A stretch of 64,000 nt of DNA, taken from NCBI GenBank assembly GCA_000004985.1, contig GG738871.1; one strand, 5' to 3'. This document shows positions 33-31,258 of this stretch, in pieces; position 1 is the stretch's first letter, and every line of letters starts with the position of its first letter. The position numbers and the translations under genes are program-made. The stretch is from Naegleria gruberi (lineage: Eukaryota). The notes beneath the pieces are model-generated. The model made no database searches. It was not told where the DNA came from and saw only the letters and a program-made list of their open reading frames with translations.

Positions 33-3000
33 TTGTTTTTCATTCAAAGTATTGTGTTAATAATACTTTTAACACAAACAACACCAGTTCTCTCATGGTC
101 CTATAGTATGAGAACTGTAGCTTCAGCACCAGATACTATTACTCAAATTGTTGGTGGTAATCAATTTATTTATGCTGCCTTTGGTTCTGATAATATTGTT
201 TATTATAACAGAAGTGATTCAACTCAAATTGATGTCGCTACCATGTTGGCTGCTACTAATACTAATGCTGGTTCTACTTTTAAATATGTCGCTTACCATG
301 GTCAAACTTCTGGAGGAAATGATATCATTTCTGCTGGTACTGTTAGTGGCATCTTTGATAGTGTTGGATTGTATTCATGCGCTATTGATTCACAGAACCT
401 TCCTGCCTCTTTGACGGCCTTTACTGGCACTTCTCCAACAAAATTATTTGGTGTGAGAGGAAAATCATCTAATTCTCCATCAGATCCTCAATTTTATCTC
501 ATGACAGATCAAGGAATTATTGAAGCTGATTCATCTAGTTCTTCGCCTGTTGGCTCTGCTTCATTTAGTACTCAAGTTGACTTGGATTTTAATTCTTCCA
601 TGGTAAGTTTATTTCTTCTAAAAACGTTGTGATAATCTAATACTTTGATAGATATTTTATTTGGATTCTTCTAGTAATCTTTGGTCGGGTTTGACTAGCA
701 GTACTAAAGTTATTGGCAGCGGACTTAATTTACCAAGATCTTTGAGCTTTGTTGATACTTTTAATCAAGTAAGTGATGAAATAGTACTCATTTCTCTAAT
801 TAAATTAGATTTTTATCTCTGATACTGGTAATGGTCGTGTTAAAGTTTTGGATCTATCCTCAAATCAAGTTACCACCATTGCCGGAGGTTCTTCAACTCT
901 TCCACCAAATGACTTTACACTTGTTAGCTCACCAACTAACTATCAAATTACTCCTACTGGTATTTGGGTTGACAAGTCAAATGGATACGTATACATTGCC
1001 GATGGAGCATACATAAGAGTTCTCACACCAACTTGTAACACCATTTCTGAGGATGCCTCTTCTTCATATCCTTTCTGTGTCTGCAAATCAGGCTATATTC
1101 TCCAAGATGGGGTTTGTGTTGTTAACAACTGTTTGACATGTAACTCAAATCAAACTTGCGTATCAAATGCCTGTGTCTGTAAAAATGGTTATTCTGGAGC
1201 TTTATGTTCTGAATACAAGTGTTTTGGTACCCCTAAAGATAATGTTGGAGTATGTAGTAGTAGAGGTTATTGTACTGCACCAGATAATTGTATCTGTACT
1301 GACTCTATGAAATACTCAGGCGCTTCATGTAATGTTACTACCTGTAATTCCATCCCATCCTATCAATCTAATGTTTGTTCTGGAAAAGGTCAATGTACTG
1401 ATTATAACTTGTGTGTATGTACCAACACAACTGAATACGGAGGAGTAAATTGTGAATATTTCAAATGTAATGGACTCAATTCAAATGATGGAAACGTATG
1501 CAGTAAGAACGGCACTTGTGTTGGAATTAATTCATGTTCATGCAATTCAAATTATGCTGGTAACAACTGCCAGTACCCTAAGTGTAACGGAATCCCATCA
1601 ACTGATACTAATAATGTTTGTAATAAGAATGGTACCTGTGTTGCTGTTGATACCTGCAACTGTAATGTTAATTACACTGGTCAATTCTGTCAATATCCAA
1701 AATGTAATGGTACAGCTTCAAACGATGCAAGTGTTTGTAACTCCAATGGTGTTTGTAGTGGTGTTAATAATTGTGTCTGTAATTCAAATTATACTGGCCA
1801 ATACTGTCAATTCCCTAAGTGTAACGGAATTGGCTCAAATGATATTAATGTTTGCTCAAAGAACGGTACCTGTGTTGCTGTTAATACTTGTAATTGTAAT
1901 GTTAATTATACTGGACCATATTGTCAGTATCCAAAATGTAATGGCACGGCTTCAAATGATATTAATGTGTGCAGTAAGAATGGTAATTGTATCGCTCCAA
2001 ATGTTTGTTCATGTAATTCAAGCTTTTCTGGCCAATTCTGTCAATATCCAAAATGTAATGGAATCCCATCAACTGATACTAATAATGTTTGTAATAAGAA
2101 TGGTACCTGTGTTGCTGTTGATACCTGCAACTGTAATGTTAATTACACAGGTCAATTCTGTCAATATCCAAAGTGTAATGGTACAGCTTCAAATGATATT
2201 AATGTGTGCAGTAAGAATGGTAATTGTATCGCTCCAAATGTTTGTTCATGTAATTCAAGCTACACTGGTCAATTCTGTCAATATCCAAAATGTAATGGCA
2301 TTCCATCAAACGATGCTAGTGTTTGTAATTCAAATGGTACCTGTATTGGTGTTAATACTTGTAATTGTAATGCTAATTATACTGGTCAATTCTGTCAATA
2401 TCCAAAATGTAATGGTACTAGCTTCTAATGATACTAATGTTTGCAGTAAGAAGGTGGTAATTGTATTGCACCAAATGTTTGTTCATGTAATTCAAGCTAC
2501 ACTGGACAATTCTGTCAATTCCCAAAGTGTAATGGTATTGGATCCAATGATGGAAGTGTTTGTAATGCAAATGGTACTTGTATTGGAATTAACATTTGTT
2601 CTTGCAATTCGAATTATGCTGGACAATTCTGTCAATATCCAAAATGTAATAGTATTGCTTCGAATAGTGGCAGTGTTTGTAATTCACAAGGATCATGTGT
2701 TGCACCAAATGTTTGTGTCTGTAATTCAAATTATACTGGCACTTATTGTGACAAACCAAGATGTGGCATCTATTATAAGGGTGATGCTTCTGCTTGTAAT
2801 TCGAGAGGTAGTTGTGATGCTGTTGATAGTTGTACTTGTAGTGATACATCTTCTTGGGGTGGCAATTTGTGTCAATATCCAAAATGTAATGCTGTTCTTT
2901 CAAATGTTGGAACTGTTTGTAGCAGTAGAGGAACTTGTCAATCTCCAAACAATTGTTCATGCACTGATCCAAGTTCATATGGTGGTTCATATTGTGAAAA

Positions 3001-5017
3001 AGCAAAATGTTATGGAATTCTTCAAGGAGATTCAAATGTTTGCAGTGGGCATGGTACTTGCAGTGGTGTGAATCAATGTTCATGCAGTGCTGGATATGGA
3101 GGTGAACAATGTCAATATCCAAAATGTTTCACTATTTTGAGTAATGAAACAACAGTTTGTAACAATAGAAACGGTACATGTACTGCACCTGATACTTGTT
3201 CATGTAACAACGGATGGACTGGAAGCAAGTGTGATGTTGCCATTTGTTTTTCAATTCTCTCCAATTCAACAAAGGTTTGTTCAAACAAGAGAGGTAGTTG
3301 TGTCACACCAGATAATTGTGTTTGTAAAAGTCAATATTCAGGTTCTCAATGTGAATATACCACTTGTTCTGGAATAAGATCAGATCAAACATCGACAGTA
3401 TGTTATGGAAATGGTCAATGTATTGATTATAATACTTGTAATTGTACAACTGGTTATGGACCATCCAATGTATGTCAATATCCAATTTGTGGTGGCTATT
3501 TGGCAAATGATACAAGAGTTTGTAACAATTCAAGAGGTGTATGTTTGAGACCAAATGAATGTAGACCATTAGATCCCGTATGTTATGGTAAAGCTCAGAA
3601 TAATTCAATGGTTTGTAGTGGACATGGTTCATGTATCGATTGGGATTATTGTGAATGTAAAACTGGTTTCAATGGAAATGAATGTCAAAATTGGGAATGT
3701 TATGGAAAGAATTATACCAACTCAAATGTTTGTAACAATGGAAATGGTACCTGCTCATCTGTGAATAATTGTGTTTGTAACAGTGGATGGTATGGAAATG
3801 AATGTACAGTTCCAATGTGTAATGGAATTCTTGCAAATTCATCCCTAGTTTGTAACAATGGAAATGGTACCTGCTCCAAACCAGGTGCATGCCAATGTAA
3901 TACTGGATACACAGGATCTGACTGTTCCATTCCAATTTGTTATGGCAAATTAGGCACTGATACAAGTAATGTTTGTTCAGGAAGAGCAGACTGTATTGGT
4001 TATAACAAGTGTAATTGTGACACTTCCAAGTATAGTGGTTCACAATGTGAATATTTCAAATGTTTTGGTATTCCGTCAAATGATGCTTCAGTTTGCAGCA
4101 GAAACGGAACATGTTCAGGTGTGAATCAATGTTCTTGTAATTATGGTTATGGTTCTTCAAATTGTGACATTTTCACATGTTCAAATGTTCTTGCCACCAA
4201 TTCAAGTGTTTGCAGTGGAAAGGGTGTATGTTATGGAATTGACAAGTGTTCATGTGATTCAGGATATTTTGGATCAAATTGTGAAATTATCTCCTGTTAT
4301 GGAATTCCAAAGTCCAACAATACTGTATGTGGTGGAGTTGGTGAATGTTCACAACTTGATACATGTGTTTGTGGAAGCGGTTATAGAGGCTCAATGTGTG
4401 AATTATCTTACACCTCTTCATCTCAAGCAACACTTCAATTCAACAATACGAATGAATATGTGAATGAACAATTCACAAGCATGGTCACTTTGACAATTAA
4501 TAATCCACTCTTCGGCCAATATTATTTGAGAAGAAGTGTTCAAGTTGTTGTTTCATTTGAAATTAATTCACAATTCAGTTATTCTGAAACACTTTATATT
4601 GAAAATGGAGTTTCATCTGTTTCATTAATGGTGAAATCGTTGAGTCAAACTGGTACATTGAAAGCATCTGCTCAATTAATTGATAATAGCACATTGATTT
4701 CCATTTCAGATAGTATTCAATCTTCAAATAGCATTACAATTCAAAATAGACCTATTGTTGTTCCATCTACAAAGACATCCACAACCAAACCAACAACCTC
4801 TGCACAAACAAGTAGAGCTGTTATCGATACAGGAAGTAATGCAGGAGCCATTGCAGCTGGTGTTATTGTTCCAGTGGCAGTTATTGGAATTGGAGGTGGT
4901 GTCACTGCAGCCATTGTCACAGCAGTTGTTTTATTAAAGAAGAAGGCTGCTGCAGCTGCTGCCGCAGAAATTTCCCATGCTCAACACGTCAATGTTGAAC
5001 TTGTTGAAGGTTTCTAA
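33..5017 (+). CDS. Giant secreted/type-I membrane cysteine-rich EGF-like repeat protein (~1630 aa); exons 33..602, 652..768, 809..5017
   Basis: N-terminal hydrophobic signal (MFFIQSIVLIILLTQTTPVLS). GTAAGT donors at 603 and 769 with TAG acceptors ending 651 and 808; the reading frame is preserved across both. The protein contains more than 45 tandem modules of type CxYPKCNG..CS..G.C..CxCN..Y(T/S)G..C. It ends with a Thr/Pro stalk (TKTSTTKPTTSAQTS), a TM helix (AIAAGVIVPVAVIGIGGGVTAAIVTAVVLL) and a short cytoplasmic tail. A local out-of-frame stretch lies at ~2419–2456 (see findings). Confidence 0.6.
1440..2760 (+). repeat. Tandem near-identical coding DNA repeats (~240/480-bp units) encoding EGF-like modules
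   Basis: Near-identical ~100-nt segments recur at ~1570–1680 vs ~2050–2160, and at ~1930–2030 vs ~2170–2270 (e.g. ccaaaatgtaatggaatcccatcaactgatactaataatgtttgtaataagaatggtacctgtgttgctgttgatacctgcaactgtaatgttaattacac). Confidence 0.6.
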
Positions 5018-11364: not shown

Positions 11365-14300
11365 CTAATTGGAAACTGAGAGTAATTGTTGACGAGAAGT
11401 GTTCATTTGGGAAAGAGTGCTAGAATTGAGCGAATGGGATTGATTGAGGAGTGATTCAATACTGAACATGCTCTTTCTCTTTTCTGCATTGTTTCGATTG
11501 AGAGATTCGTTTGTTTGATTCCAATTCTTATTGATTGGTTGTGTTGAAGCATTGATTGGACTCATGTGCTCCCAGTGGTTAATGAATTTCTTAGAAAATT
11601 GATTAAATTCATCAGAGTTTGCATTTTGAGAGAGACCCTTCATGAGCGATTCAACATTCTTATTAGAAAGATCATTAAATTGCAACATTTCTATTGATTC
11701 CTTTTCCACTCTCAAAGACTCTACTCTATGTTCAGTAAATATAAATTTTACGAGTTGCTTTCTAACTCCTTCATACAGAGCCGATAAGTAAACCAAAGCA
11801 AATACTATATTCTCCAATGAATTATTCAACTCTTGAATCTTGGAGAGATTTTTCTTCTTTTCTCCTTTCAATAATCTTCTTTCATCAATAAGATCCACAA
11901 CCTTGCTCTTTACAATTGGTATCAACTTATTCTCCATTGCAATAGCAATGACATCCTTATATCTTTTCGAAAGTATCATCTTCTTCAATGAGGAAATGGT
12001 GCTAGCTGGCTCACTTCTCAACTTTTCATAAATTTTACTCAAAGATCTCAGACACTGACAGCAATAATAGGCAGATCTGAATTCAATCTGTGAAATCCAA
12101 ATTTTGATCAACTCGGTTAAATGTTTTTGATTATACGAAAAGAATGGAATGACATTCTGCATCAAAGTTACAAAATCATTCACTCTCATCGAGTTCTTAT
12201 CAAAGTTTTGAATAATATGAATTAAATCTGTTGTAATCTTGTTGTAAAAATCTGGATTCAAAAGGAGAGAAATATTGTTATTCTTAATATTGTGAACAAT
12301 AGTCTTGGTAATGGTTGTAATCTTGGAGCTGGAAACAATTTCACTTGTTTGGAATTTCAGAAATTGATAACTATATGGATCTGAAATCATGGTTGAAAGA
12401 ATTTCCATATAAGTATTTGTGAAAATTTCTGTAATATTCTTCATATCGACTGATGAATTTGTTTCAATTAATTCATCTAATTGTCTAATTTGACGAACCA
12501 AACATTTGAAAAAGTTCCAAAAGTATTCTTCGTGTGAAAGATAGCCACAAGCTTGCTTATCCTTCTTTACACATGTCAATATTGTCATGAGAGCCAATTG
12601 TTCTAATTCGATCATGTCAGCATTTCTTAAATCCTTCAAATTGACTTCCTTTCCTTGTCTTTCTGAATGAATTCTTACCATCATTTCACACAACATGTTC
12701 AGCAAACCTTCTTCTCTTATAATTTTCACAATTTCTTCTTTTTGTCTCGAGTAGACACATGTGAAATTCAACATCTTTACCGATTCAAGAATGATTAGAA
12801 TTGGATCGATTGGTTTTCCATTTCTTTCCAATACGAAAGAGAGAACATTCTTTTCATCTTTTAAAAATGTGAACCAATAATCAGCAATGAATGAAACTAA
12901 ATCTTTGATTTGCTTTCCTCTCACCTCTAGAACATGTCTGTTGTTGTAATCTGAAATTTGCTCTGATAAACTTTGGAATAATCTCTTCAATGTTGGATTG
13001 GAAATAATTTCTCTTGATTTGGAGAATGTGGAAAAATCAGGTTTCAAATTTTCCAAATTAAGGAAGTTAACAACTTTAATTTGTTTCTTGCTCATCAACT
13101 TCTTCGAGAAACTACTATCATTCTTATTGTTTTTATCTCTATAATCAATTGAATCATGATCCTTATCAAATGAAAAGTTAGTTGAGCAATCAGAGCTTCT
13201 ATATTTGGTTAAATATTCTCTTGTGCTCATAAATGAATCTTCCACGAGCCTGTACTGTTTCACAGAGATTGGATCCATCATTTTCGAATTTACATGTGCG
13301 AAAGAACTCAATCCATAACAAGCTGCATGATAAAGCATCTCACGAGGGGGAATTTCGAATGTGAAATCTTCATCCTCCATGTTATCAACATTGATATCCA
13401 TTTCGAGAATGTTAATGGATGGATCAGAGAAGATATCTTCATCAAGGGTGGGGTTGTTGAGGTAATCGAATTCTTCATCCATTGAGGAATCTTGAAGTTT
13501 AGTTGCATCAATGGAAGCAGAAATGATATCAAACATGGAAACAACTCTATTCGAAAAGACATCTTCGAAAGTGTCAGTAACAAAGTGAAGCTTTCTATTG
13601 AATTCATTCCTTTCGTGGGCGTTCAACGTGGTCAAAATCTGCAGAATTGTTTCGTCTGTCAAATAGACGAAATTGTCTCCCTTTACAATATCCCAAATAT
13701 CACAACCATTCTTTTGTAATTCTTGTTGATCTTCTATTTTCATCTTGTAACCATACTTATCATCTCCAGTGTAAAGATTAATCAACATTGGAAAACCAGT
13801 TTGTTTCAATTGACTCAAACATTGATTGAAAACTGTGTTTGAAGTTTTCTTTTCAATGCCAAATGTCATGCAGTGGATAAAGTATGATCTAGAAATGTAG
13901 CGAGATGTTAATTGTTCAAAGAGAGTGTCTTCAAAGCTTTCTAATGCATTAGGTAAATAATCTTCACCGAATTGTTGGACGAAATCTCCCAAAAGTAAAG
14001 TAAGGACTTTTGAGGTCGTTTTCATCATATCACAAGTGGAGGAAACCATTTCAAGGGGAGTCGAAACAAACATTGAATCGTCATATGTTTTGAAAGCGTT
14101 AACACTTTCGTATACTTTCATCACTTGTTCCACCATTTGAACTTGATCCAAACTCAACAAATCCTTAATGAGAATCATTTCATTCTGAGCATTAGATTGG
14201 ATAGCAATCATATTAAACAACTCTACAAATTGATCTGAAAGATTGTCAGCCTCTGTTTGAGTTGGAAGATCAAAAACAACAATTTCCTTAATTTGGGAAC

Positions 14301-15982
14301 TGGTGTTTTCACATCTTCTTCTCCAGTTGAGTAAAATTGTTTGGATTTGAAGATTGATTCTCTCTTCAATGAATGAAATAACGGATCCATACAGTAAATC
14401 AAAGATAAAGTGAACTTGTTGTTGGGAATAGAACAGCGATCTACACTGGTCAACTGGTAAATCTAAAAGGTACGATACAATTTCAAGGTATGATCGTTAT
14501 CTTCGGATAGGATATCTGTAAAATCAAAGTTATAAATCCACATGCATGCAGATAGAACTCTATAAATGGAATCAGATTCTTGGGATGAAATCCCAAATTT
14601 GGAAAAGTAATCTTTCATTTTCTTAACATCCATTTTCAAAAAATTCAAGTCTTTATAGTTGACTTGATGTTTCTGAAACATTTTGTAAGTTTTCAAATCA
14701 TCCGAAATGAAATGATTCTCCTTTCCATATTCAGATTCACCAGCATTAATCATGAGAAGAAAGATGTGATACAAGGGTGGGTTTCTCTCTATCTGTAACC
14801 CCTCTCCACACAGAGTTCCCTCTCTAAATATGGATTTAATAGAGAGTGAGTGAATTCTATTATCCTGATCACATTTCATTGTAACAGTTCTCATGTGAGT
14901 TTGTGTGAGAGCTTTCTGATAGAGAATATTCGAAAATATGAGTAAAATGTTGAGAGCTGGACCGACTGTAGATATAATACTGTCCATATATTGCTCTTGT
15001 TGACTTCCTTGATTGGAAGAGTGATAGGGAAGTAGTTTCTTATTTAACAATGTCATGACTACTTGTTGTAATGTTACTTGTTTTTCCTTTGAACCTTCAC
15101 CCAATAATACTATACATTGTTGGTTAATACCATTACTTAATTGAGTATGAAGATAATTTACAACATCTTGACCGTTATTTACAATAGCTGAGGCTTGTTT
15201 CTTGTTGATGAATGTCACATCTGGATTTTTGAGAAGGATATTTCTCTTACCAAAATGCATCTAATGTTGATGTGAAATGTATTGTTATTGTGTTATTCTA
15301 ATGATAGGAGTGATAAAATACTTACTGTGAAAATTTGTGAAGATCTCAATTGATCCATGAATGACTTATTTACAAAATTTGTCCAATTGGCTACAACTTG
15401 CGCCAGGGAATGACAGCCAGGACTGGCCCACATGAGATTCTCCCTCTCCAGGTTGTTCAAGGCTGGAGCATCGACTGGATAACACTTGGATGGATCGACT
15501 TGAATCTCCTGTCCCCCAAGAATTTCATTACTTGAAATGTTTCTCTCGTTGATAATGACCTGGACGTTCTTGACCTGTCTAACCACTTGTGCCAAGTACA
15601 GTTTATCCTTGATTTCAACCCAAACCAATTCGTCTTTCTTGAACATTTTTCTGGTAGGTTCTTTATAAGTTATCTGAGGTGCAGAGCTTGTGCTTGATAC
15701 TGGAAAGTTTGGTATCAGAGCTGTGATTGGAAGAAAGCTTGGCGAGAAGAGGAAATCATCATTGAATGCAGCAGTGGTTGGAGCTACTTGTTCACCACTT
15801 GATGTTGAACTTGTAGTGGAGTGAAGCGATGATGTATCATCTGATTGATTATCATCTTCATATCTATTCTCTAGGAGAGTGATAAATTTTGGAGTGCTCG
15901 GTGGAGAAGGAACTTTAGATGAATGATGCATGTTCTTCATTGGGTCTCTCAACTCAATGATTGATTCTTGATTCGATAACAT
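11365..15982 (-). CDS. Highly divergent myosin-like protein with degenerate nucleotide-binding motifs (pseudo-motor); exons 15326..15982 and 11365..15260, with an apparent 1-nt homopolymer frameshift near 14465–14468
   Basis: The exon-1 ORF (15293..15982) has a myosin N-terminal SH3-like region (KKDELVWVEIKDK..VQVIINER..QVDPSKCYP). A GTAAGT..TTAG intron (15261..15325) joins in frame to ORF 14463..15260. The P-loop is NQQCIVLLGEGSKEKQV (vs NQSxLITGESGAGKT) and ERNPPLYHIFLLMINAGESE matches ERNYHIFYQL. Switch I is degenerate (CDQDNRIHS vs NSSRFGKFI). The HYGNxxF block is CMWIYNFDF. Switch II is degenerate in the 3' part (IVVFDLPTQTEADNLSDQFVELF vs IGVLDIAGFEIFxxNSFEQLCIN). The ORF continues 951 aa to 11365. 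Confidence 0.55.
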
Positions 15983-19502: not shown

Positions 19503-21008
19503 ATGAACAATTCAAAATCTTCAATGATTTCATTCGGGGCAGCAATTGTCTCGATGATAGCAGTCACATTGATGATGCTATCAATAGCCTCTGCCTTCTC
19601 GGTAAAGAGTGATATCGATTATCGTACAGTATTGTCTGATTATGTGAAGGGAAATAATCAATACTTTAAATATCAATTGAAGGGTACTTATGATAATGAT
19701 TATGGAAAATTCATAATCTTCAACATGACCAGTGTAAAGTGGTTGGATGAGAAGGAGCTTGGGAATAGCTGCTATTGGTTCCACTTGGTCGAAATTGCCA
19801 TTCCAAAGAAGATTAAGCAACAATCAAATGTGTTGATGTTGGTTGCTGGTGGATCTCAAAAGGAGATTGCACCAACAAGTGATAATGAATTAATGAAAAT
19901 GGCTGCCAGTACTCAATCTATTGTTGCATCTATTCATCAAATTCCAAATCAACCTTTGGTTTTCAATTCTGATCCAACAAGACAACAAAGAATTGAAGAT
20001 GAAATTCTTGCCTATGCTTGGGCAAAATTCATGCAAAACACAACTCAAACTGGGTGGATTCCAAGATTACCTATGGTTAAGGCAACCATGTTGGCAATGG
20101 ATGTTGTTCAAGAATATTTGAGAACTACCTTATCAATTAATGTAATGAATTTCCATGTTGCAGGAGCAAGTAAGAGAGGTTGGACCACTAATTTGGTAGG
20201 TGTTGTTGATAAGAGAGTTAGAAGTATCATGCCAATCGTTATTCCAGTAATGAAAACTAGAGATATTCTTGGTAAGTTAACAAAACTATATTAGTTAATG
20301 ACCCTATTGTAAAATATAGAACATTCTTACAATTCGCTTTGCACATGGCCAGAAGCAATGGGTGATTATGTTAAAGAAGGTATCACTACAAAATTAAACT
20401 CTAAAGAATTCCATCAACTGACAACAGTTATAGATCCTTTCGAATATAATGATATTTTGGCAACAATCAACAAGTATTTCATTTATGCCACTGGTGATCA
20501 ATTCTTCCTTTGCGATCTTAGTCAATTCTCTTATCCATACCTTAAGGGAGGTGACCAACTCAAACATTTAAGATATGTTCCAAATACTGATCACTCTTTG
20601 GATGGATCTGATGCCCAAGTTTCTGCTTTAGCTTATTACTTTAGTTTGGCCAACAAGCTTCCACTTCCAGTTTACAATTTTACAGCAGTTTCTGATAGGA
20701 CTGGCGTTTCTGTTGGTGTCAAGGTAATGAGCCCGATTCCACCATCTGCTGTCCTGTTGTGGGAAGCTCGTGCTCCACAAAGAGATTTCAGACTTCAAAC
20801 CATTGGAAAAGCATGGAAACCAAGACCACTCCAATTGTCTAAAGATGGTAGTGTTTCAGTTCACCTGGATAATCCAGCCACTGGCTATTATGCTGCCTTT
20901 GTTGAATTAACATTTGATTATTTAGGAACACAAATTCCTCTCAAGTTTACAACATCAGTTTATGTTCTTCCTGATATTTTGCCATGTAAATACCATAATA
21001 AAGTTTAA
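19503..21008 (+). CDS. PhoPQ-activated pathogenicity-related protein family member, secreted; exons 19503..20271, 20320..21008
   Basis: Signal peptide MNNSKSSMISFGAAIVSMIAVTLMMLSIASA. Phase-1 intron 20272..20319 (GTAAGT...ATATAG). Family-like blocks (WFHLVEIAIPK, VLMLVAGGS, WIPRLPMVKATMLAMDVVQEY, HVAGASKRGWTT). Total ~485 aa. Confidence 0.6.
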
Positions 21009-23660: not shown

Positions 23661-24992
23661 TTACACATTTCTTGCATTTTCGAGAGAGGAAAATAATTGT
23701 TCCAAATCATCAGGATTTGGTAATGAATAAGAATCCAACATTTCAGAAATTTGAGCACTCCTAGAAGATGAAGGGAAAATTCTACTAGTATACGTTGACT
23801 GATTATCGGCTTCCAAATAATTATTATCATTATTATTTACAGAAGATGATGGAGGTGGTGTTTGGTGTCTATTTTCATGTAATCCAATTGAGTGAATATT
23901 TGGATACACGTTTTGGTGAACTACTGGAGTTGTGAAAAAAGAGGGTTGAGGTGGCAAGACTGGTTGAAATTCTGGTGAATTGAAACTCAATCCAAATGGT
24001 GTTGACTGAGTTGGAAACTTGTTTCCACTGTTGTGTGAATTGAATGGAGCGACAGCATTAAGCGGGATGTATGGTGAAGTGTTTCTCATGGCCACTATCT
24101 GTTGCATAAATGGATTATGAAAAGATGGATTTGGTTGAGTAGAGGAATTATTTTCACCGCTAACCTTTGTAAAGGTAGTTTGAGGGGAACAGTTTTGAAA
24201 GGATATTTGTGAAGAGGGAATGGTTTGACCAAATGAGATGAGTTGTGAATTGTTCAAACCTGGTGATTTCACTTGTTGAAACATTAAATAACCAGAGTTG
24301 ACAGTGGATTGTGAGGAATTTGAGGAAGTAGAGTTGTGACTCATTTCACTGTTTGTTGAAGAGGTAGAACTTTGAGAGCAGGCTGAGGAAATTGAAGGAG
24401 AGGAAACATTGTTGAAAGGATTGTTACCCGAATACAATTGTGAAGGAGTGGATGGTGAAATTCGTGTGTGAGGAGATGTGCTAGTGGATGATGAACAAGT
24501 TGACTGATTGGTATTTGTGTTGGAATTACATGTTCGAGGAAGAATTTTCATGTTGAGTGAGTTTTTTCTTTGCTCTTGCAATGTTTTCAATCTTTCTTCT
24601 CTTGTGGTCTTTCGTTTAATTTGTTCAACACATTGAATTCCATTCTTGATGCATCTAGAGCAAGACCTTTGTTCACCACAAGATCTATCACATCTTGCAT
24701 GTGCTTTATGACAAGCAACACAAGCCACTGTACAATGATGATGACAATAATTTCAGTTCATGAGGATTAAAAAGGAATTAGCAAAAATCTTACCTTTTTT
24801 ACTCTTCTTTTTTTTAATACCATTGTGGTCTGTGTTTGTATGAGGAGATGAGTCATTAGATTCACTACTATTTGATTTATCATCACGACGATTTGCAACA
24901 CCCTTATGATCAACACCTTGAGAGTGATTGGTGTGGATATTAGAGTGCATTCTTTTTTTTCTGGTTATTGAAAGAAATTCAACCTCTTTCAC
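23661..24992 (-). CDS. Zn(II)2Cys6 binuclear-cluster (GAL4-type) DNA-binding transcription factor; exons 24794..24992 and 23661..24727
   Basis: After the 24728..24793 intron (GTAAGA...TACAG) the protein reads ACVACHKAHARCDRSCGEQRSCSRCIKNGIQC (CxxCxxxxxxCx5-9CxxCxxxxxxxC), followed by a basic linker and a long S/T/N/P-rich low-complexity activation-like region. Confidence 0.6.
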
Positions 24993-25757
24993 AGGATTGA
25001 CTAATCATTTTCTTCTCGTTAGTGTGGGAATTTTCTAATAATAAAATTATGATATGCAGGAGTTTGACTGACACGATGATATCGGAGGGTATTTGCTCTT
25101 ATCACAGTGGCTTATTTTCGATACGAAACATGACGATTTTGATGAAAGCAAAGGAGATTGTTGCCAGAAAGAATAGACACTAACCATAAGGAATTAAAAC
25201 CAATAGTTTCTCCAAGCCAACTTCTAATTGCGAAGGAGAAACGTTTCGATTGTGTTGAGAGATAAGTTGCTCTAGATCCTTCCGCAAATACTTCTAATTT
25301 ACTGTCTCCGGAAGCAAGGTGTCATTGTTTGTAATTACTTTTTGTGGATAGAATTAACCTGTTTTTCGTATCGTGATTTAGTAAAGAGAGAAAGTATCAT
25401 GGAGTTCTCATGTTGTTGAAAAATTATTCGAAAGACTATTCGAGAAATGTTTCGTCACCACCTGCCTTTAAGAAGATGAATATTATTTTCCAATAATATG
25501 ATAAATACCGTATGAGAGTTTTTTAAGGTTCACTTAGGTCAAAATCATTTCGTTGTGATATGCTCATGTTGAGAGTGAACACATCTCATTCAAGTCGTCA
25601 ATCATGTTGTATTTGTGTAAATCGTAGTGTTCTTTTACAACTTTTATTTACACCAAACTACAGTTTTCATCTGGTCAATACTTTTGAAAATGTTGATTAT
25701 CCTTGTTTGGTGTTTAGCCCTAGTTCGTATTTATTACAATAAAATACCACTAGAAAT

Positions 25758-27277
25758 ATGCTTATGTGCTTATCCACTTGTTCAAAGTCATGTGATGTAG
25801 TAATTCATATTCGAATAAGATTGGCAGACTGGACTACAAACAAAAAAATGTTCGCCTCAAGGAGAATAGCTGTTGTTGGTGTTGGTGAGGAAAAATCAAG
25901 TTTGATGACCTTAATCGAACAAGAACACGGAACGGTTACTTCAAGTGTTTCTAGCACTACTCACATGTTAATCACAATGAACAAGAAATTGGTAGCAGCA
26001 AAGAATGCGTTGAAGTATAACATTCCGATATTCAGTGTTGATGAATTTAAACAAAAGTACTTCAAAAACATGTGATTGTTAATACGTTTGATTTATTTTA
26101 CCTTCATTATAGTGAAGAGGAAATCCCAAATAAGAACAAGAGAAAAGCTGACCCAAGTGTAACGGATATAGCAGAAGACTTGACAATGCGTACCCCAAAT
26201 AAACAACTTTCAGAGTCTACTACTATTGTTCAAAGATTCGAAACTCCAACCAAATTTTTTAGTTCTTTGGGCCTTAGTCCCCAACCGATTTGATTCGTCC
26301 AAACAGATAGCTCAAGCACTCTTAGAACAGAAAACCTACCCAAAGGGAATGCTTCCAGTTTTGAGTCAACATTTTGGAAGTGGCAAAACAGCACTTGTTG
26401 CAAACTTCCGTGGTGTTTTGGAACAACAAGAATACATCAATGATGATACTTATTTTGATAAATTGATGAAAGCAGCTTTGGTGAGACTTGACATGACTAC
26501 TATTGATCAATTTGTACCTTTAACAACAAACCTTACTACTGGAATAATTCGTACTCATTTAGTGGCGAGCATTTCTGAAGCACTGGCTAAATTGAGAGAG
26601 AACAATCCTAATACTCTTAATCTTGAAAAAAGCTATAGTACAATATTAGAACTATCATCCACTCAACAAAATTCCCTTGTTGCAAAACAACTCGAAGATT
26701 CGCCTAGTATTTTTTCATTTCTCCAAGCATGGTCTCTCAACAACATCTATTCCTTACTTGTATTTTTTGATGAATTGGGATCTCTTGAAAATCCACGGAT
26801 CCACTCATGCAATTTTGGAATGATATTGCAAATTTAATCGGCCAAGAAAAAAATATTCACAATATATTCATAATTGTGGCCGGAAAATCTGCCACCTTAG
26901 CTCAATTAGGTAGGCAAGAACATGGAAGACTCGTATCGCCTACACCAGCTACACATATTGTTCTTGATATGCTTTCTATTGAGTTTGTTATCGAATTAAT
27001 AGAAAAGTTTAACCCTGACATATCTCTCATAAGGAAATCTCCGAACAAAATTAAGGAGTTTGCACAGATTACAAAATCAAGAATTTTTGTTCCTAAAAGA
27101 ATTGAAGCTATTATACTGGGAAAGGAAGCATTTGATACATTCTTTACAATAGAGGACAAGAACATGTTGGACAGATTATCTTCAAATGAGCTGCCCAATA
27201 TTGATTACTTGAAAAATTTCTCCCAATCAATCAGTTGCATTCAGAGGCACCATTGGAATGGCGTTAATTTAAATTGA
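25758..27277 (+). CDS. BRCT-domain + P-loop NTPase (Walker A/B) protein; exons 25758..26071, 26113..27277; two apparent 1-nt frameshifts at T homopolymers (26255–26260 and 26800–26803)
   Basis: BRCT-like segment MFASRRIAVVGV..THMLITMNKKLVAAKNALKYNIPIFSVDEF. Intron 26072..26112 (GT..TATAG). Walker A (LSQHFGSGKTALV), Walker B (LLVFFDELG) and sensor-like IIVAGKSAT. ORFs 26072..26293 / 26226..26837 / 26807..27277 overlap in different frames exactly at T6 and T4 runs; changing the run length by one T gives a continuous ORF. Confidence 0.45.
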
Positions 27278-28141
27278 TTTATTGTAATGTTACTTGGAGT
27301 ATTCGATGAGTTTAGTAATACACAAGTTATGAGAATTTGACAACTGTTAGAACAATTGCAATTTTTGGGAGAACACTTCGTTACTGATTGTGGTGGTTCT
27401 TCAAATCGAATATAATTCTTGTGAAACGTTTCAAAATTGTGTTGTCCTTTGGCTGAGATTGCTTGATTGTTGATTATTTTCTAATGAATTCTCTGACACC
27501 ATTGAAAGCGTGGAAAGTTACGAAATTATTGCTTGTCGACAAAATAGTAAAGAACTGTTATGCATGTGAAAAACACATTTCAAGTCGCGAACCATGTTGT
27601 TGTTTTGCAAAATAAATGTTCTATTACAATTTCGATGATCATCAAACTACTGTTTGTATCTTCTTAGTATGCCTTATCAAATGGAGTTGACCAATTGAGA
27701 TCCAACCAAATTACTTCTCTCATTACAACATTGTACAAAAAAAATTACAACAACATTCATACCACCATCACTAGCAAAAAAGGGTAGTTTGAATTTTCAG
27801 TCTTCTGACCCACACGCACTTTTTGATTCTTGCAAGACATCATCTTCCACAAAATTAGCGCCTAATTTTTTTGGTAAAGCTGAAAAAAATATTTTTGTCA
27901 AGATTTGGATTTAATTTTTGTTGTATTCAATAAGCATCATCACCAGCAATAGACTGAACATCAAGAGTTTTTTGTCAACACTAAACTTTTGTCCATCATT
28001 GATATTGTTTAAATAGGATTGTAGATAATCAACTGTTTTAAAGATCCGATATTGTGATTGAGAAACAAATTCACACAATCAGCATCAACATCAATTAATT
28101 TATTATTTAAATAATTATTATTGGAGTACTAGTAACACAAT

Positions 28142-31100
28142 ATGCCATTATTTGGAATACCTAAAAAGCCACTACAAAAAAGAGGATTAGGTCAGGCCCA
28201 AGATAAACAATGGCCATCCAATAAGCCTGTTTTTCATATTCCAATCACCGATGAGGTTTTTGATGATTATGAGTAAGTAGTGATGATCACATAGACTTGA
28301 CCATATTTACAACTTACAATAGGGATTATGTCAATAGGCAAATAATGTATAAACTTCAAATTTGGAGTTGTCAATACACAGGAAGAGAAAACATGACATA
28401 TGAACAAGCATTGGAATCAGAAAAAGAACACAAACAACAAGATTTGTTTAAATATTATCCTAGATATATTCTTCGTCATATTTGTTATATGGTACATAAT
28501 TGTAGAAAGGGTGAAACTTTCCAAGAATTAGCACATAGAATGGCCAAGTTTTTTGAGTATAACTTCATAGAGGGTGAGGAACTTTACTGTGAGTTGGACA
28601 CAACGTAAGTATTTTCAATTATTCACTCCGAATCAAATATTGTTATTGTTGATAGTATTTCTGTTGTTTTAAAAAGAATACTTCTCAAGAAACTTCACTA
28701 TTATTTGAATGATCCAAATTTTCCTCCTTTTTCTGCACCTTTGTATATAACAGATGCTGATAGTCATCAAATTGAAGTTTTTCATCAAACAAAACCACAG
28801 GAACATCATTATGATTACGATTTACTGAACATGGGATATGGTACACAAGGAAAACTTTACGAAGTTGAAGTTGTTTCAAATAATTCTACTTTTGAAAACA
28901 AAATCATTGTTGTGTACTACACTGTATTACTCAGAAAACAGAGCTCTCTAATCGAATCTGTTGATAAGATTATGAGATGGTTACATGAATATACCTTTTT
29001 GGATGAGGATGGAATGATTTTATTGAAACCTGAATTATTGGAATATTTCAAACTTGAACCAAGAGCTGCAGCACAATGCGAAGTTAAATCAAAATATCAA
29101 AAGAAAATTGATGAAGAAATGTATGATATTGAGAGATTTAAGCATGGAAGAATCAAGTCTTTGTATGATTTAAAGTATCATCATGTTGATAAGTTCGGAA
29201 GGCTTATGTCTGATATCAAGGAAATCGAATCATCGCTCAAAGGCATTCCTGTTGCAGAGCCATCACATTCTTCATCAACAAATGGTAGTAATATTCAAAA
29301 CAGTCATTCAACAAATGGTATTGTTGTTGAACATTATGAACAGCCAAGTGCCCCTGTTGTACAACAAATTAATCCATTACTATTACCAAAGAAGGATGGA
29401 ACCATACTAGATGAATATATTGCGGATAGAGAACCTCAAAAATCTGATGAAAACTTTCCAAAGTTCCATTATGATTTCATTATCAAAACTCCAGAATGTA
29501 TTCCTGATGCTTTAAACATATTTAATTTCCTTTTTTCTTTTAGAGGACCTCTCAAATTGGATCCATTTACTTTTGACGAATTCCAAAATGCTTTAGAATG
29601 TAAAGATGAAAACAATCCACTATTAAGATCAACTTTACAACATGGTAAGAAACAAGGATCAAAGAATGATTAATCTCCCTTCAAGAAAATTAGTCATCAA
29701 TAGAGATGCAACTGTATACATTGCTCAAACCATTCCAGTTATTCCTCTCCGTGAATATTGGAAAGTGTTCATGCCTCACGAAATAATTAATATTAAAAAG
29801 GAAGAAGTTATCAAACAAGTACCTGAAGTTAAGCAAGAACAAGAAGAAGTTAAACAAGAAGAGCCTAAATCTGAATCAAATGGAAATAGTGCTGCAGAGC
29901 CAACTATTATTGAAGATGACAAGGATGTTGAAATGAAAGAAAGTGTAAAGGTAGAAACAACACCATCATCTGAACCAACAACAGCAACAACAACAGATGA
30001 GCAACAACAACCTGCTGAACCTGCTGAGGTCAATCAAGTCAAGGAAGAAAATAATGAAACAACTAACCAAGAAGTGAAAACTGAAGAAATTAAGGAGGAG
30101 GAACCAACTGCACAAAGTAATAATAATATGGTAGATGAAGATGTAAAGCAGGTAAAGAGTGTTGTTGAAAGAGCAATGGAATTCATCAAGAGTGATGCCT
30201 ATGATGATAATGAAATTGACTTTTTCAAACACTTGGATTCCGATGTTAAAGTATATATTTTAAGCAAGCTAACAGAACAATGCATTTTGACAGCCACTAT
30301 CAGAGAATTTACAGATGAAAATATTGAACACATGAAAAAGTTGAAGAGACAAAAGAATTTGGAAAATACTGAAGATATTGAAAAATCAAAAGAAGAAACT
30401 GAAGAGGCAAAGAAACTAACTGCTGAAGAATTGAAATCAAGAAGGAATAAGAGAGAGAAAGTCTATCAAGATTTACTTTCCCTTCATGCAATTAGAGCCA
30501 AACCTCTAGGATATGACAGACGGTTCAATCGTTATTGGTTCTTCCCAACTTTTGTTGGTGTACTTTTTGTTGAACCATGTTCTCCATTCAGACTTGTTGT
30601 AAACAACGGTGTTGCTGATCCAGTGGAAACAAGACATTGGGGATATTTATGTACAAAGAAAGAGATTGAAACTTTAATTTCCACCTTAGATCCAAGGGGA
30701 TTCCGCGAAAAGAAACTTCTCTCAAATTTAAATAAGTATAGAAGAGAAATAATAGATCAAATCACTCTGAGAAATTCTGCCATTAATCCAGAAATGGTAG
30801 CCGAAGATGTACCATTAAGCACAGCTCAAACGACTGAATCTGTCCCATCATCAAATGGAGGAGAATCAAAGACAGAAGTAGCCTCGTCCTCCTCAACTAC
30901 AGACAATGAAATGAAAGATGAAGCACCAATTACTAAACCTGAACAAACTCCTGAAACATCCAATGTACCTTCAATTGTTATTGATGATGTTTCTACAGAT
31001 TCTCCATCAAAGAAGAGAAAACATACAGATGACAATGTATCTGACATTAGTGAAGTGTCATCTAGTTCACAACAACCTAAGAGAACTAAATTAGATACAA

Positions 31101-31258
31101 CCCTCGAAGAAATTGCAACTAAGTATCCTACGAAATTCAAACCAAGCATAGAGTCTTTCCAACCAACTTCATTCCTCAAATATCGAAATAGTCAGGAAGA
31201 AGTTATTCCTGCAGACTCTGAATGTTTCCTTCCAGACGAAGATGAGGAAGAAGATTAA
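28142..31258 (+). CDS. ACF1/WSTF(BAZ)-like chromatin-remodeling accessory protein with WAC and DDT domains; exons 28142..28272, 28323..28604, 28656..29644, 29694..31258
   Basis: WAC: MPLFGIPKKPLQKRGLGQAQDK...FDDYE|DYVNRQIMYKLQIWSCQYTGRENMTYEQALESE. DDT: IPDALNIFNFLFSFRGPLKLDPFTFDEFQNALE. WSD-like: YDRRFNRYWFFPT. Acidic E/K-rich middle. Introns 28273..28322, 28605..28655 and 29645..29693 are all GTAAG..(T/A)AG. No PHD or bromodomain before the stop. Confidence 0.65.

What the first reader, a model, noticed from the sequence alone, without database searches (positions are those of the whole stretch)
25758..27277. Unusual BRCT + P-loop NTPase architecture, split into three frames at T homopolymers
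A BRCT-like domain is followed by a Walker-A (HFGSGKTALV) / Walker-B (VFFDELG) NTPase with a sensor-like IIVAGKS. The coding sequence changes frame twice, at a T6 run (26255–26260) and at a T4 run (26800–26803). Adding or removing one T at each site yields one continuous ORF of about 480 aa. A BRCT-coupled NTPase is not a common eukaryotic architecture. It could be a checkpoint/clamp-loader-like factor or a lineage-specific STAND-like NTPase.
Basis: partly seen in the sequence, partly recalled or inferred. Interest (0 to 1): 0.55.

Follow-up and report, generated by a model that had tools for sequence, protein, structure and literature searches.

The report
Decayed BRCT–AAA+ ATPase pseudogene, Naegleria
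This is the broken remnant (pseudogene) of a Naegleria gruberi gene that once joined a DNA-repair-type BRCT domain to an ORC/Cdc6-like AAA+ ATPase; the frame breaks are real multi-base deletions, not sequencing slips at T runs, so the locus is ordinary, though the gene family behind it is uncharacterised.

Summary
The window is Naegleria gruberi NEG-M DNA. A BRCT domain followed by a Walker A/B NTPase is really there.

- A 41-nt GT..AG intron (26072-26112) joins the BRCT exon to the rest.
- The frame breaks are not at T runs. Compared with the same locus in a sister strain (L001, 93-97% identical), the window lacks 2+9 nt at 26271/26282 and 10 nt at 26788.
- About 400 codons are missing after ~27012: the AAA+ lid, the winged-helix region and most of the C-terminal domain. 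Full-length paralogues are 749-837 aa.

L001 carries different lesions: a TAA stop, 16-, 8- and 1-nt deletions, and a different large deletion. The locus is therefore decaying independently in both strains. No annotated protein matches it.

Verdict: a pseudogene of a small, unnamed, lineage-restricted BRCT-AAA+ family with a nuclease-like C-terminal domain. Interest is low to moderate.

The parts
25848..26071 (+). Exon 1: BRCT domain of the LigA/PARP1/RFC1 type. The first in-frame ATG of the ORF is at 25758, but the ATG at 25848 aligns with the start (MFAG...) of the homologous exon in L004.
   Evidence: Pfam BRCT 25.1 bits against a cut-off of 21.3, E 2.1e-5. A 3-sequence profile gives BRCT domains as its top eight PDB hits: LigA 1l7b E 5e-4, then PARP1 and RFC1. 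L004 start codon context.
26072..26112 (+). Spliceosomal intron of 41 nt (GTGATTG...TTATAG). It moves the reading frame from 0 to 2.
   Evidence: Sequence. Splicing joins BRCT in frame to the linker. GT..AG is kept in L001 (40 nt), with 4 substitutions and 1 indel. L004 has a 35-nt GT..AG intron at the equivalent place.
26113..26271 (+). Exon 2, low-complexity linker (EEEIPNKNKRK...ETPTKFFSSLG), frame 2. It contains the T6 run at 26255-26260, which is not the lesion.
   Evidence: L001 reads TTTTAA at the T6 run, a substitution that creates a stop codon in L001.
26271..26283 (+). Lesion 1. A 2-nt deletion (AA) between 26271 and 26272 shifts the frame from 2 to 0. A 9-nt in-frame deletion (AAGATTGTA = KIV) lies between 26282 and 26283, within the family's conserved '(I/V)PFVNR' motif.
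   Evidence: Alignment A2. The L001 version reads ...SSLGTLVPKIVNRFDSS in one frame and matches the family motif.
26272..26788 (+). AAA+ ATPase core, N-terminal part, frame 0. Walker A HFGSGKT at 26370-26390; Walker B VFFDE at 26760-26774.
   Evidence: tblastn of P0001 residues 115-291, 37% identity. 95% identical to P0016.
26788..26789 (+). Lesion 2. A 10-nt deletion (AGAAAATTAC in L001) shifts the frame from 0 to 2.
   Evidence: The L001/P0016 reading FFDELGSLEENYKSTDPLMQFW matches P0010 FFDEVSYLEYLYKSTEGVTQLW.
26789..27012 (+). AAA+ core, C-terminal part, frame 2. Contains IIVAGKS (26870-26890) and SPTPATHIVLDML.
   Evidence: tblastn of P0001 residues 296-~363.
27012..27013 (+). Junction of the large internal deletion. 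About 400 codons are missing, matching P0001 ~363-761: the AAA+ lid with the GGIPR sensor-2-like motif, the winged-helix region, and the conserved D, K and E of the C-terminal domain.
   Evidence: L001 still carries ~100 of these codons (P0017, matching P0001 369-472) but has its own deletion further downstream.
27013..27277 (+). C-terminal remnant (…IRKSPNKIKEF…RIEAIILGKEAFDTFF…) ending at the stop codon. It matches P0001 762-831. A 1-nt indel relative to L001 lies at 27244/27245.
   Evidence: tblastn, 37% identity, E 3e-10.
25578..25672 (+). Left copy of a ~95-nt diverged direct repeat that brackets the whole relic.
   Evidence: E 1e-7 within the window; spacing 1989 nt.
27572..27661 (+). 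Right copy of the flanking direct repeat. It is also present in L001.

Best explanation
The locus is a unitary pseudogene in Naegleria gruberi NEG-M.

ANCESTRAL GENE
- Exon 1 encoded an N-terminal BRCT domain of the LigA/PARP1/RFC1 type.
- A very short intron followed.
- One long exon then encoded a low-complexity linker, an AAA+ ATPase of the ORC/Cdc6-STAND-like kind (closest solved structures: archaeal 'ATPase_2' proteins PABY2304 and SSO1545), a helical/winged-helix region, and a ~270-aa C-terminal domain.
- That C-terminal domain has invariant or near-invariant D, K and E residues, and I read it as restriction-endonuclease-like.

LESIONS IN THE WINDOW
- A 2-nt frameshifting deletion next to a 9-nt deletion.
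- A 10-nt frameshifting deletion.
- A ~1.2-kb internal deletion that removes the ATPase lid (sensor-2-like GGIPR), the winged-helix part and the putative catalytic residues.
- It therefore cannot make the family's protein. At most, a ~135-aa product consisting of the BRCT domain and linker could be translated.

INFERRED FUNCTION OF INTACT MEMBERS (not shown)
The BRCT domain targets the protein to DNA ends, nicks or phospho-marks. ATP binding and hydrolysis by the AAA+ module switches or oligomerises it on DNA. The C-terminal domain acts on DNA.

The family turns over by birth and death: every BRCT-bearing copy recovered is damaged.
For: SHOWN
- The organism is N. gruberi NEG-M, by four exact protein matches.
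- The only homologue found by the first protein search is the N. gruberi paralogue P0001 (837 aa, 38% identity). It aligns to the window as residues 115-291 in frame 0, 296-391 in frame 2 and 762-831 in frame 2.
- The sister-strain locus L001 is 93-97% identical, including 390 nt of 3' flank. It shows the window-specific 2-, 9- and 10-nt deletions. It also shows L001-specific lesions: a TAA stop, 16-, 8- and 1-nt deletions, and a different large deletion.
- Seven simple indels fall in ~1.4 kb of 'coding' DNA, and only one is a multiple of three.
- The direction of change is given by family motifs kept in whichever strain lacks the lesion.
- Restoring 21 nt and splicing the intron gives one ORF.
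- dN/dS is 0.48, with substitutions spread 9:12:16 over codon positions.
- No annotated protein was found at the locus.
- The architecture recurs in L004 and in P0026/L002.
- BRCT identity.

INFERRED
- The nuclease-like reading of the C-terminal domain rests on conserved HPAPKSxSxD...AxKN...QxEIDKA and a predicted alpha-beta-beta-beta-alpha-beta core.
Against: - No reads or transcripts could be inspected.
- The other haplotype(s) of NEG-M could still hold an intact allele.
- dN/dS of 0.48 is below 1, so part of the divergence accumulated under constraint. That could mean recent inactivation or a retained function of the BRCT-only ORF.
- L001 is a short metagenome contig with an inverted-duplication artefact at its 5' end. 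Its lesions are less secure than the window's.
- The C-terminal fold was not tested on its own. No Pfam or PDB sequence hit supports a nuclease.
- The function of every family member is unknown.
Confidence: 0.88

Rival explanations
1. One reading: an intact ~480-aa BRCT-NTPase gene whose frame is broken only by assembly or sequencing errors at T homopolymers.
For: A T6 run lies inside the interval where both frames are open. Single-base edits restore an ORF of 492 aa.
Against: - The second break cannot be at the T4 run.
- The sister strain shows 2+9-nt and 10-nt length differences elsewhere, and no length difference at the T6 run.
- The 'restored' protein lacks ~400 residues present in all full-length relatives.
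- From my own knowledge, the NEG-M genome was sequenced by Sanger shotgun, which is not prone to homopolymer errors.
Confidence: 0.02
2. A functional gene decoded unconventionally, through programmed +1/-1 frameshifting or ultra-short introns. One candidate is the 16-nt GT..AG stretch at 26262-26277, which formally reconciles frames 2 and 0.
For: The 16-nt GT...AG segment has the right length class (16 mod 3 = 1).
Against: - 16 nt is far shorter than the 35-41-nt introns seen in this family.
- In L001 the equivalent stretch is 18 nt and the frame runs straight through it.
- There is no room for an intron at the second break (26789-26806).
- The large deletion remains.
Confidence: 0.02
3. The relic is partly alive. 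The BRCT exon plus linker (ATG 25848, spliced, stop at 26291-26293, ~135 aa) is still expressed as a stand-alone BRCT protein.
For: - The start codon, the intron GT..AG and the BRCT ORF are intact in the window.
- The BRCT exon has only 3 substitutions against L001 (dN/dS 0.46).
Against: - Three substitutions carry no statistical weight.
- L001 has a 16-nt frameshifting deletion in the linker just after the BRCT exon.
- No protein model exists.
Confidence: 0.08
4. Two unrelated neighbouring genes, a small BRCT gene and an NTPase gene, read together by accident.
For: Prokaryote-style gene callers split them in L004 into a 77-aa BRCT ORF and a 466-aa ORF.
Against: - The same order, strand and a phase-compatible short intron occur in the window, L001 and L004.
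- In P0026 the two parts are in one continuous ORF, aligned in a single HSP.
Confidence: 0.02

Closest known systems
Archaeal 'ATPase_2' AAA+ proteins (Pfam PF01637; PABY2304 = PDB 2qen, SSO1545 = PDB 2fna)
   Same: - Walker A GxGKT, Walker B hhhhDE and a GG(I/V)PR lid motif are shared.
- A weak PF01637 sequence hit for P0008.
- From my own knowledge, PF01637 proteins are often fused to a PD-(D/E)xK-type domain (DUF234), which parallels the C-terminal domain here.
   Different: - Sequence scores are far below the Pfam cut-off (15.6 against 33.2 bits).
- This family is eukaryotic (Naegleria and unidentified protists).
- It carries a long disordered N-terminus or a BRCT domain, and a different, unrecognised C-terminal domain.
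- The function of the archaeal proteins is also unknown.
RFC1 (large clamp-loader subunit): BRCT followed by an AAA+ module
   Same: - Same domain order, with an N-terminal BRCT of the RFC1/LigA/PARP1 class followed by an AAA+ module.
   Different: - RFC subunits are poorer structural matches than ATPase_2, TnsC, NLR or Cdc6.
- No Pfam or PDB sequence match to RFC was found.
- The family has a large extra C-terminal domain.
- The family is small, lineage-restricted and frequently pseudogenised, unlike an essential replication factor.
Cdc6/ORC initiators and STAND NTPases (CED-4/Apaf-1, plant NLRs); TnsC/MuB transposition ATPases
   Different: - No repeat sensor domain (LRR, WD40 or TPR).
- No CARD or TIR domain.
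- No sequence-level match.
- No transposase neighbours are seen in the window.

Membership tests
BRCT domain (Pfam PF00533) | Sequence match above the curated Pfam score | tested here: met
   The domain-only query (window 25842-26069) scores 25.1 bits against a cut-off of 21.3, E 2.1e-5. Embedded in the long protein it scored 21.2. The L004 homologue hits BRCT and BRCT_2.
BRCT domain (Pfam PF00533) | Profile similarity to solved BRCT domains, and the beta-alpha-beta-beta-alpha-beta-alpha fold | tested here: inconclusive
   The top eight PDB hits of the 3-sequence profile are all BRCT domains (LigA 1l7b E 5e-4, 1dgs, PARP1, RFC1). The AF2 model has only pLDDT 55, although its secondary-structure order is compatible.
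AAA+ ATPase, ORC/Cdc6-STAND-like; nearest is ATPase_2 (PF01637) | Walker A GxxGxGK[ST] and Walker B hhhhDE | tested here: met
   HFGSGKT at 26370-26390 and LLVFFDE at 26754-26774. Both are conserved across the family.
AAA+ ATPase, ORC/Cdc6-STAND-like; nearest is ATPase_2 (PF01637) | AAA+ fold with lid and winged-helix domains | tested here: met
   [not shown]
AAA+ ATPase, ORC/Cdc6-STAND-like; nearest is ATPase_2 (PF01637) | Pfam PF01637 / AAA_16 score at or above the curated cut-off | tested here: not met
   ATPase_2 scores 15.6 bits against 33.2. AAA_16 scores 13-15 bits against 32.6. The family works like these proteins but is not a sequence-level member.
Clamp loader (RFC) family | Closest similarity to RFC subunits | tested here: not met
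   [not shown]
STAND NTPases (NB-ARC/NACHT) | NB-ARC/NACHT signature plus a C-terminal repeat sensor domain | tested here: not met
   [not shown]
KAP P-loop NTPases | KAP_NTPase signature with transmembrane helices inserted in the P-loop domain | tested here: not met
   No KAP_NTPase hit in Pfam at E up to 5. The model shows no inserted hydrophobic helical hairpin.
PD-(D/E)xK nuclease superfamily (C-terminal domain of intact relatives) | alpha-beta-beta-beta-alpha-beta core with conserved D ... (D/E)xK | tested here: inconclusive
   K136 is invariant, and D120 and E151 are nearly invariant (90% or more). The residue two positions before the K is not acidic. The predicted secondary structure fits. 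There is no Pfam or PDB sequence hit. The domain could not be fold-searched alone. It is almost wholly deleted in the window.
Pseudogene (unitary, non-processed) | Frame-disrupting lesions whose direction of change is set by relatives; independent lesions in a sister lineage; loss of essential parts | tested here: met
Pseudogene (unitary, non-processed) | No full-length transcript or protein | not testable with these tools
   No RNA-seq or read data are available. The only support is the absence of an annotated protein.

The most novel reading that the evidence does not exclude
The intact relatives may form an undescribed eukaryotic family of DNA-directed AAA+ switches coupled to a nuclease-like effector. 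Members include N. gruberi P0001, P0007 (D2VYU3) and P0008 (D2VVY1), the BRCT-bearing subfamily, and distant members with a PHD-finger insertion. Their small copy number, patchy distribution and very frequent pseudogenisation would fit a genome-conflict role, such as defence against foreign DNA or a domesticated or selfish element, rather than a housekeeping repair factor. All four independent BRCT-type or related environmental loci examined are damaged.
Probability: 0.15. Interest if true: 0.6.

Novelty: new variant of a known kind. Interest (0 to 1): 0.27.

Why it matters
For this locus the practical value is annotation. It should be flagged as a pseudogene, not 'repaired' into a 480-aa gene.

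The wider point is modest. Naegleria and some unidentified protists carry a small, unnamed family that couples an ATPase_2/ORC-like AAA+ module to chromatin or DNA-damage reader domains (BRCT, PHD) and to a conserved C-terminal domain with a D/K/E signature. Eukaryotic counterparts of the archaeal ATPase_2 proteins are essentially unstudied. The rapid birth-and-death pattern hints at a conflict-related role. If that were shown experimentally it would be of real interest. The window itself cannot show it.

Tried and rejected
- Homopolymer-error repair: arithmetically possible but contradicted by the paralogue alignment and the sister strain.
- Sequence searches of P0001 and family profiles against Pfam, NCBIfam, PADLOC and PDB gave nothing significant.
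- Viral origin: a BFVD fold search gave only generic AAA+ hits. The viral-contig scan could not run because the alignment lacked a conserved stretch.
- The metagenome-contig scan with the reconstructed protein found no further loci.
- The look-up of encoding contigs had no record for P0001 or for a window neighbour, so the paralogue's genomic context could not be seen.
- The word-indexed protein search is insensitive here. It missed the 95%-identical P0016. The 'no annotated model' claim therefore also rests, which used the exact ORF.
- The AF2 model of the BRCT exon alone was too poor (pLDDT 55) to fold-search.
- The afdb50 library was unavailable.
- The flanking ~95-nt direct repeat was examined as a possible sign of a mobile element. 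No counterpart flanks L002 or L004, and there are no further copies in the window, so it is left unexplained.
- Literature searches found no description of this family.

Full report
ORGANISM AND SETTING

The window has 34% G+C. Four of its ORFs are exact matches to Naegleria gruberi NEG-M proteins on a 417,575-bp scaffold: D2VH09, D2VH11, D2VH25 and D2VH33. The locus lies between two genes. Upstream is a Zn(2)Cys(6)-domain ORF on the minus strand (23661-24728). Downstream is a WAC/DDT/WSD chromatin-remodelling-type gene (28142-31258).

WHAT THE SEQUENCE SHOWS

Three-frame translation shows four coding segments.
- Frame 0, 25758-26071: a BRCT-like segment.
- Frame 2, 26113-~26271: a low-complexity linker.
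- Frame 0, ~26272-26788: contains Walker A (HFGSGKT, 26370-26390) and Walker B (VFFDE, 26760-26774).
- Frame 2, 26789-27277: contains IIVAGKS (26870-26890).

The first frame change is a textbook short intron. GTGATTG...TTATAG at 26072-26112 is 41 nt, and removing it joins the BRCT segment to the linker in frame.

The T6 run at 26255-26260 exists. The stated T4 run at 26800-26803 does not: those bases are 'tcca', and the T4 run is at 26813-26816.

RELATIVES

The corrected protein finds only one protein in the word-indexed database. This is P0001, an N. gruberi 'predicted protein' of 837 aa on another scaffold, at 38% identity.

An exhaustive HMMER scan with P0001 finds only 20 proteins.
- Two more are full-length N. 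gruberi paralogues: P0007 = D2VYU3 (765 aa) and P0008 = D2VVY1 (749 aa).
- The rest are metagenome fragments and distant members.

P0001 aligns to the window as follows:
- residues 115-291 in frame 0;
- residues 296-391 in frame 2;
- residues 762-831 in frame 2.

Two conclusions follow.
- The second frame break lies before the QFW codons, in 26789-26806, and so not at the T4 run.
- The window lacks roughly residues 363-761 of a full-length protein.

THE DECISIVE COMPARISON

P0016 is a 188-aa metagenome protein, 95% identical to the window ORF. It lies on the 2,107-bp contig L001. L001 is collinear with window 25889-27668 at 93-97% identity, including 390 nt of 3' non-coding flank. It is therefore the same locus in a sister strain.

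Relative to L001, the window has these lesions:
- a 2-nt deletion after 26271 (the frameshift);
- a 9-nt deletion after 26282;
- a 10-nt deletion after 26788 (the second frameshift);
- a large deletion starting near 27012.

At the T6 run the two strains differ only by substitution (TTTTTT against TTTTAA).

The L001 state is ancestral at both frameshifts, because it restores family motifs.
- ...TLVPKIVNRFDSS matches the family's (I/V)PFVNR motif.
- FFDELGSLEENYKSTDPLMQFW matches P0010's FFDEVSYLEYLYKSTEGVTQLW.

Putting those 21 nt back and splicing the intron yields one uninterrupted 499-aa ORF from 25758 to 27277.

L001 has its own lesions.
- A TAA stop.
- A 16-nt deletion in the linker.
- An 8-nt deletion inside GKSATLAQLGR, where the window is ancestral.
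- A 1-nt deletion.
- A different large deletion. L001 keeps P0001-equivalent residues 369-472 but lacks ~473-794. The window keeps 762-831.

Of the seven simple indels in ~1.4 kb, only one is a multiple of three.

Substitutions are spread 9:12:16 over the three codon positions, and dN/dS is 0.48 (13 synonymous, 24 non-synonymous). That is relaxed but not fully neutral, which suits a recent loss of function.

No annotated N. gruberi protein corresponds to the locus. The locus is therefore a pseudogene that is decaying independently in two strains.

IS THE BRCT-NTPase ARCHITECTURE REAL?

Yes.
- The BRCT segment alone passes the Pfam threshold: 25.1 bits against 21.3.
- A three-sequence profile of the family's BRCT regions retrieves only BRCT domains as its top eight PDB hits: LigA 1l7b at E 5e-4, then 1dgs, PARP1 and RFC1.
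- P0026 (394 aa, locus L002) has the BRCT-like region and the NTPase in one ORF. It aligns with the reconstructed window protein in a single HSP from the BRCT region onward (28% identity, E 1e-31).
- L004, a 3,770-bp metagenome contig, has a BRCT exon, a 35-nt GT..AG intron at the equivalent position, the AAA+ region and the C-terminal domain. Together these cover P0001 residues 58-833.
- The start codon of the L004 BRCT exon (MFAG...) aligns with the window's ATG at 25848, which is therefore the likely true start.

All of these copies are also damaged.
- L002 has a stop inside VAG*S and is truncated.
- L003 lacks the equivalent of residues 153-262.
- L004 has an in-frame TAG and a frameshift.

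The three annotated full-length N. gruberi paralogues lack a BRCT domain.

WHAT KIND OF NTPase

Pfam gives only sub-threshold hits, to AAA_16, AAA_22 and ATPase_2.

An AlphaFold model of P0001, built with the family alignment, has mean pLDDT 75, and its structured domains are mostly above 85.

Foldseek agrees. The family keeps a GG(I/V)PR motif in the lid, which I read as sensor-2-like as in Cdc6. That part is deleted in the window.

The C-terminal ~270 residues carry an invariant K and nearly invariant D and E within HPAPKSxSxD ... AxKN ... QxEIDKA. Their predicted secondary structure is alpha-beta-beta-beta-alpha-beta. I read this as a PD-(D/E)xK-like domain in which the helix after the third strand supplies the acidic residue. 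This is an inference. No sequence search supports it, and the domain could not be fold-searched alone.

MECHANISM

The window copy is non-functional. At most it could give a ~135-aa product consisting of the BRCT domain and linker.

For intact members I propose the following, at roughly 40% confidence. The BRCT domain docks on DNA ends, nicks or phosphorylated partners. The ORC/Cdc6-like AAA+ module acts as an ATP-dependent switch or oligomeriser on DNA. The C-terminal domain acts on DNA.

The small family size, the accessory chromatin and DNA-damage reader domains (BRCT, and a PHD finger in P0021), and the high rate of pseudogenisation fit a fast-turnover, possibly conflict-related role. No link to known prokaryotic defence families or to viruses was found.

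VERDICT

- The architecture and the AAA+ placement are right.
- The explanation of homopolymer errors hiding an intact gene is wrong.
- The locus is an ordinary pseudogene of an uncharacterised, lineage-restricted variant of a known kind of ATPase.

Noticed in passing
window 25578-25672 and 27572-27661: A ~95-nt diverged direct repeat (72-78% identity, E 1e-7 within the window, spacing 1989 nt) brackets the whole pseudogene. The right copy is also present in the sister-strain contig. There are no further copies in the window and no equivalent repeats around L002 or L004. The origin is unexplained; it could be an old insertion or duplication footprint, or a shared upstream element.
   Followed up: partly
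L002 1863-3170; L003 5358-6254; L004 659-3311: Every environmental copy of this family that could be inspected at the DNA level is damaged: in-frame stops, frameshifts or internal deletions. This suggests family-wide birth-and-death turnover in Naegleria-like amoebae.
   Followed up: partly
L001 1-106: The first 106 nt of the metagenome contig are an exact inverted copy of its positions ~106-211 (window 25897-26002). This is a typical assembler hairpin artefact, so the 5' end of L001 carries no information about the start of the BRCT exon.
   Followed up: yes
window 1535-2683: A tandem array of ~9.6 copies of a 117-nt (39-codon) cysteine-rich unit, with higher-order periods of 237, 354 and 471 nt. 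It lies inside long overlapping ORFs (848-5017) and looks like an EGF-like repeat protein.
   Followed up: partly
window 23661-24728 (minus strand): An ORF with a fungal-type Zn(2)-Cys(6) binuclear cluster domain (Pfam E 1.5e-5) in a heterolobosean genome. It starts at a GTG in the ORF list, so the true start or an upstream exon is unresolved.
   Followed up: no
window 19503-20294: An ORF with a strong match to the bacterial-type PhoPQ-activated pathogenicity-related protein family (PF10142, E 9e-61). It covers only the first 220 of 367 profile positions, so it is either split by an intron or truncated. It may be a gene of bacterial origin.
   Followed up: no
window 14463-15260 (minus strand): An ORF with a weak, sub-threshold match to the myosin head domain (24 bits against a cut-off of 33.3). 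It may be a fragment or one exon of a myosin gene adjoining the 951-aa ORF at 11365-14220.
   Followed up: no
(tool behaviour): The word-indexed protein search missed the 95%-identical P0016 when queried with the 492-aa corrected protein, but found it with a shorter query. Negative results from that tool should be read with care.
   Followed up: yes
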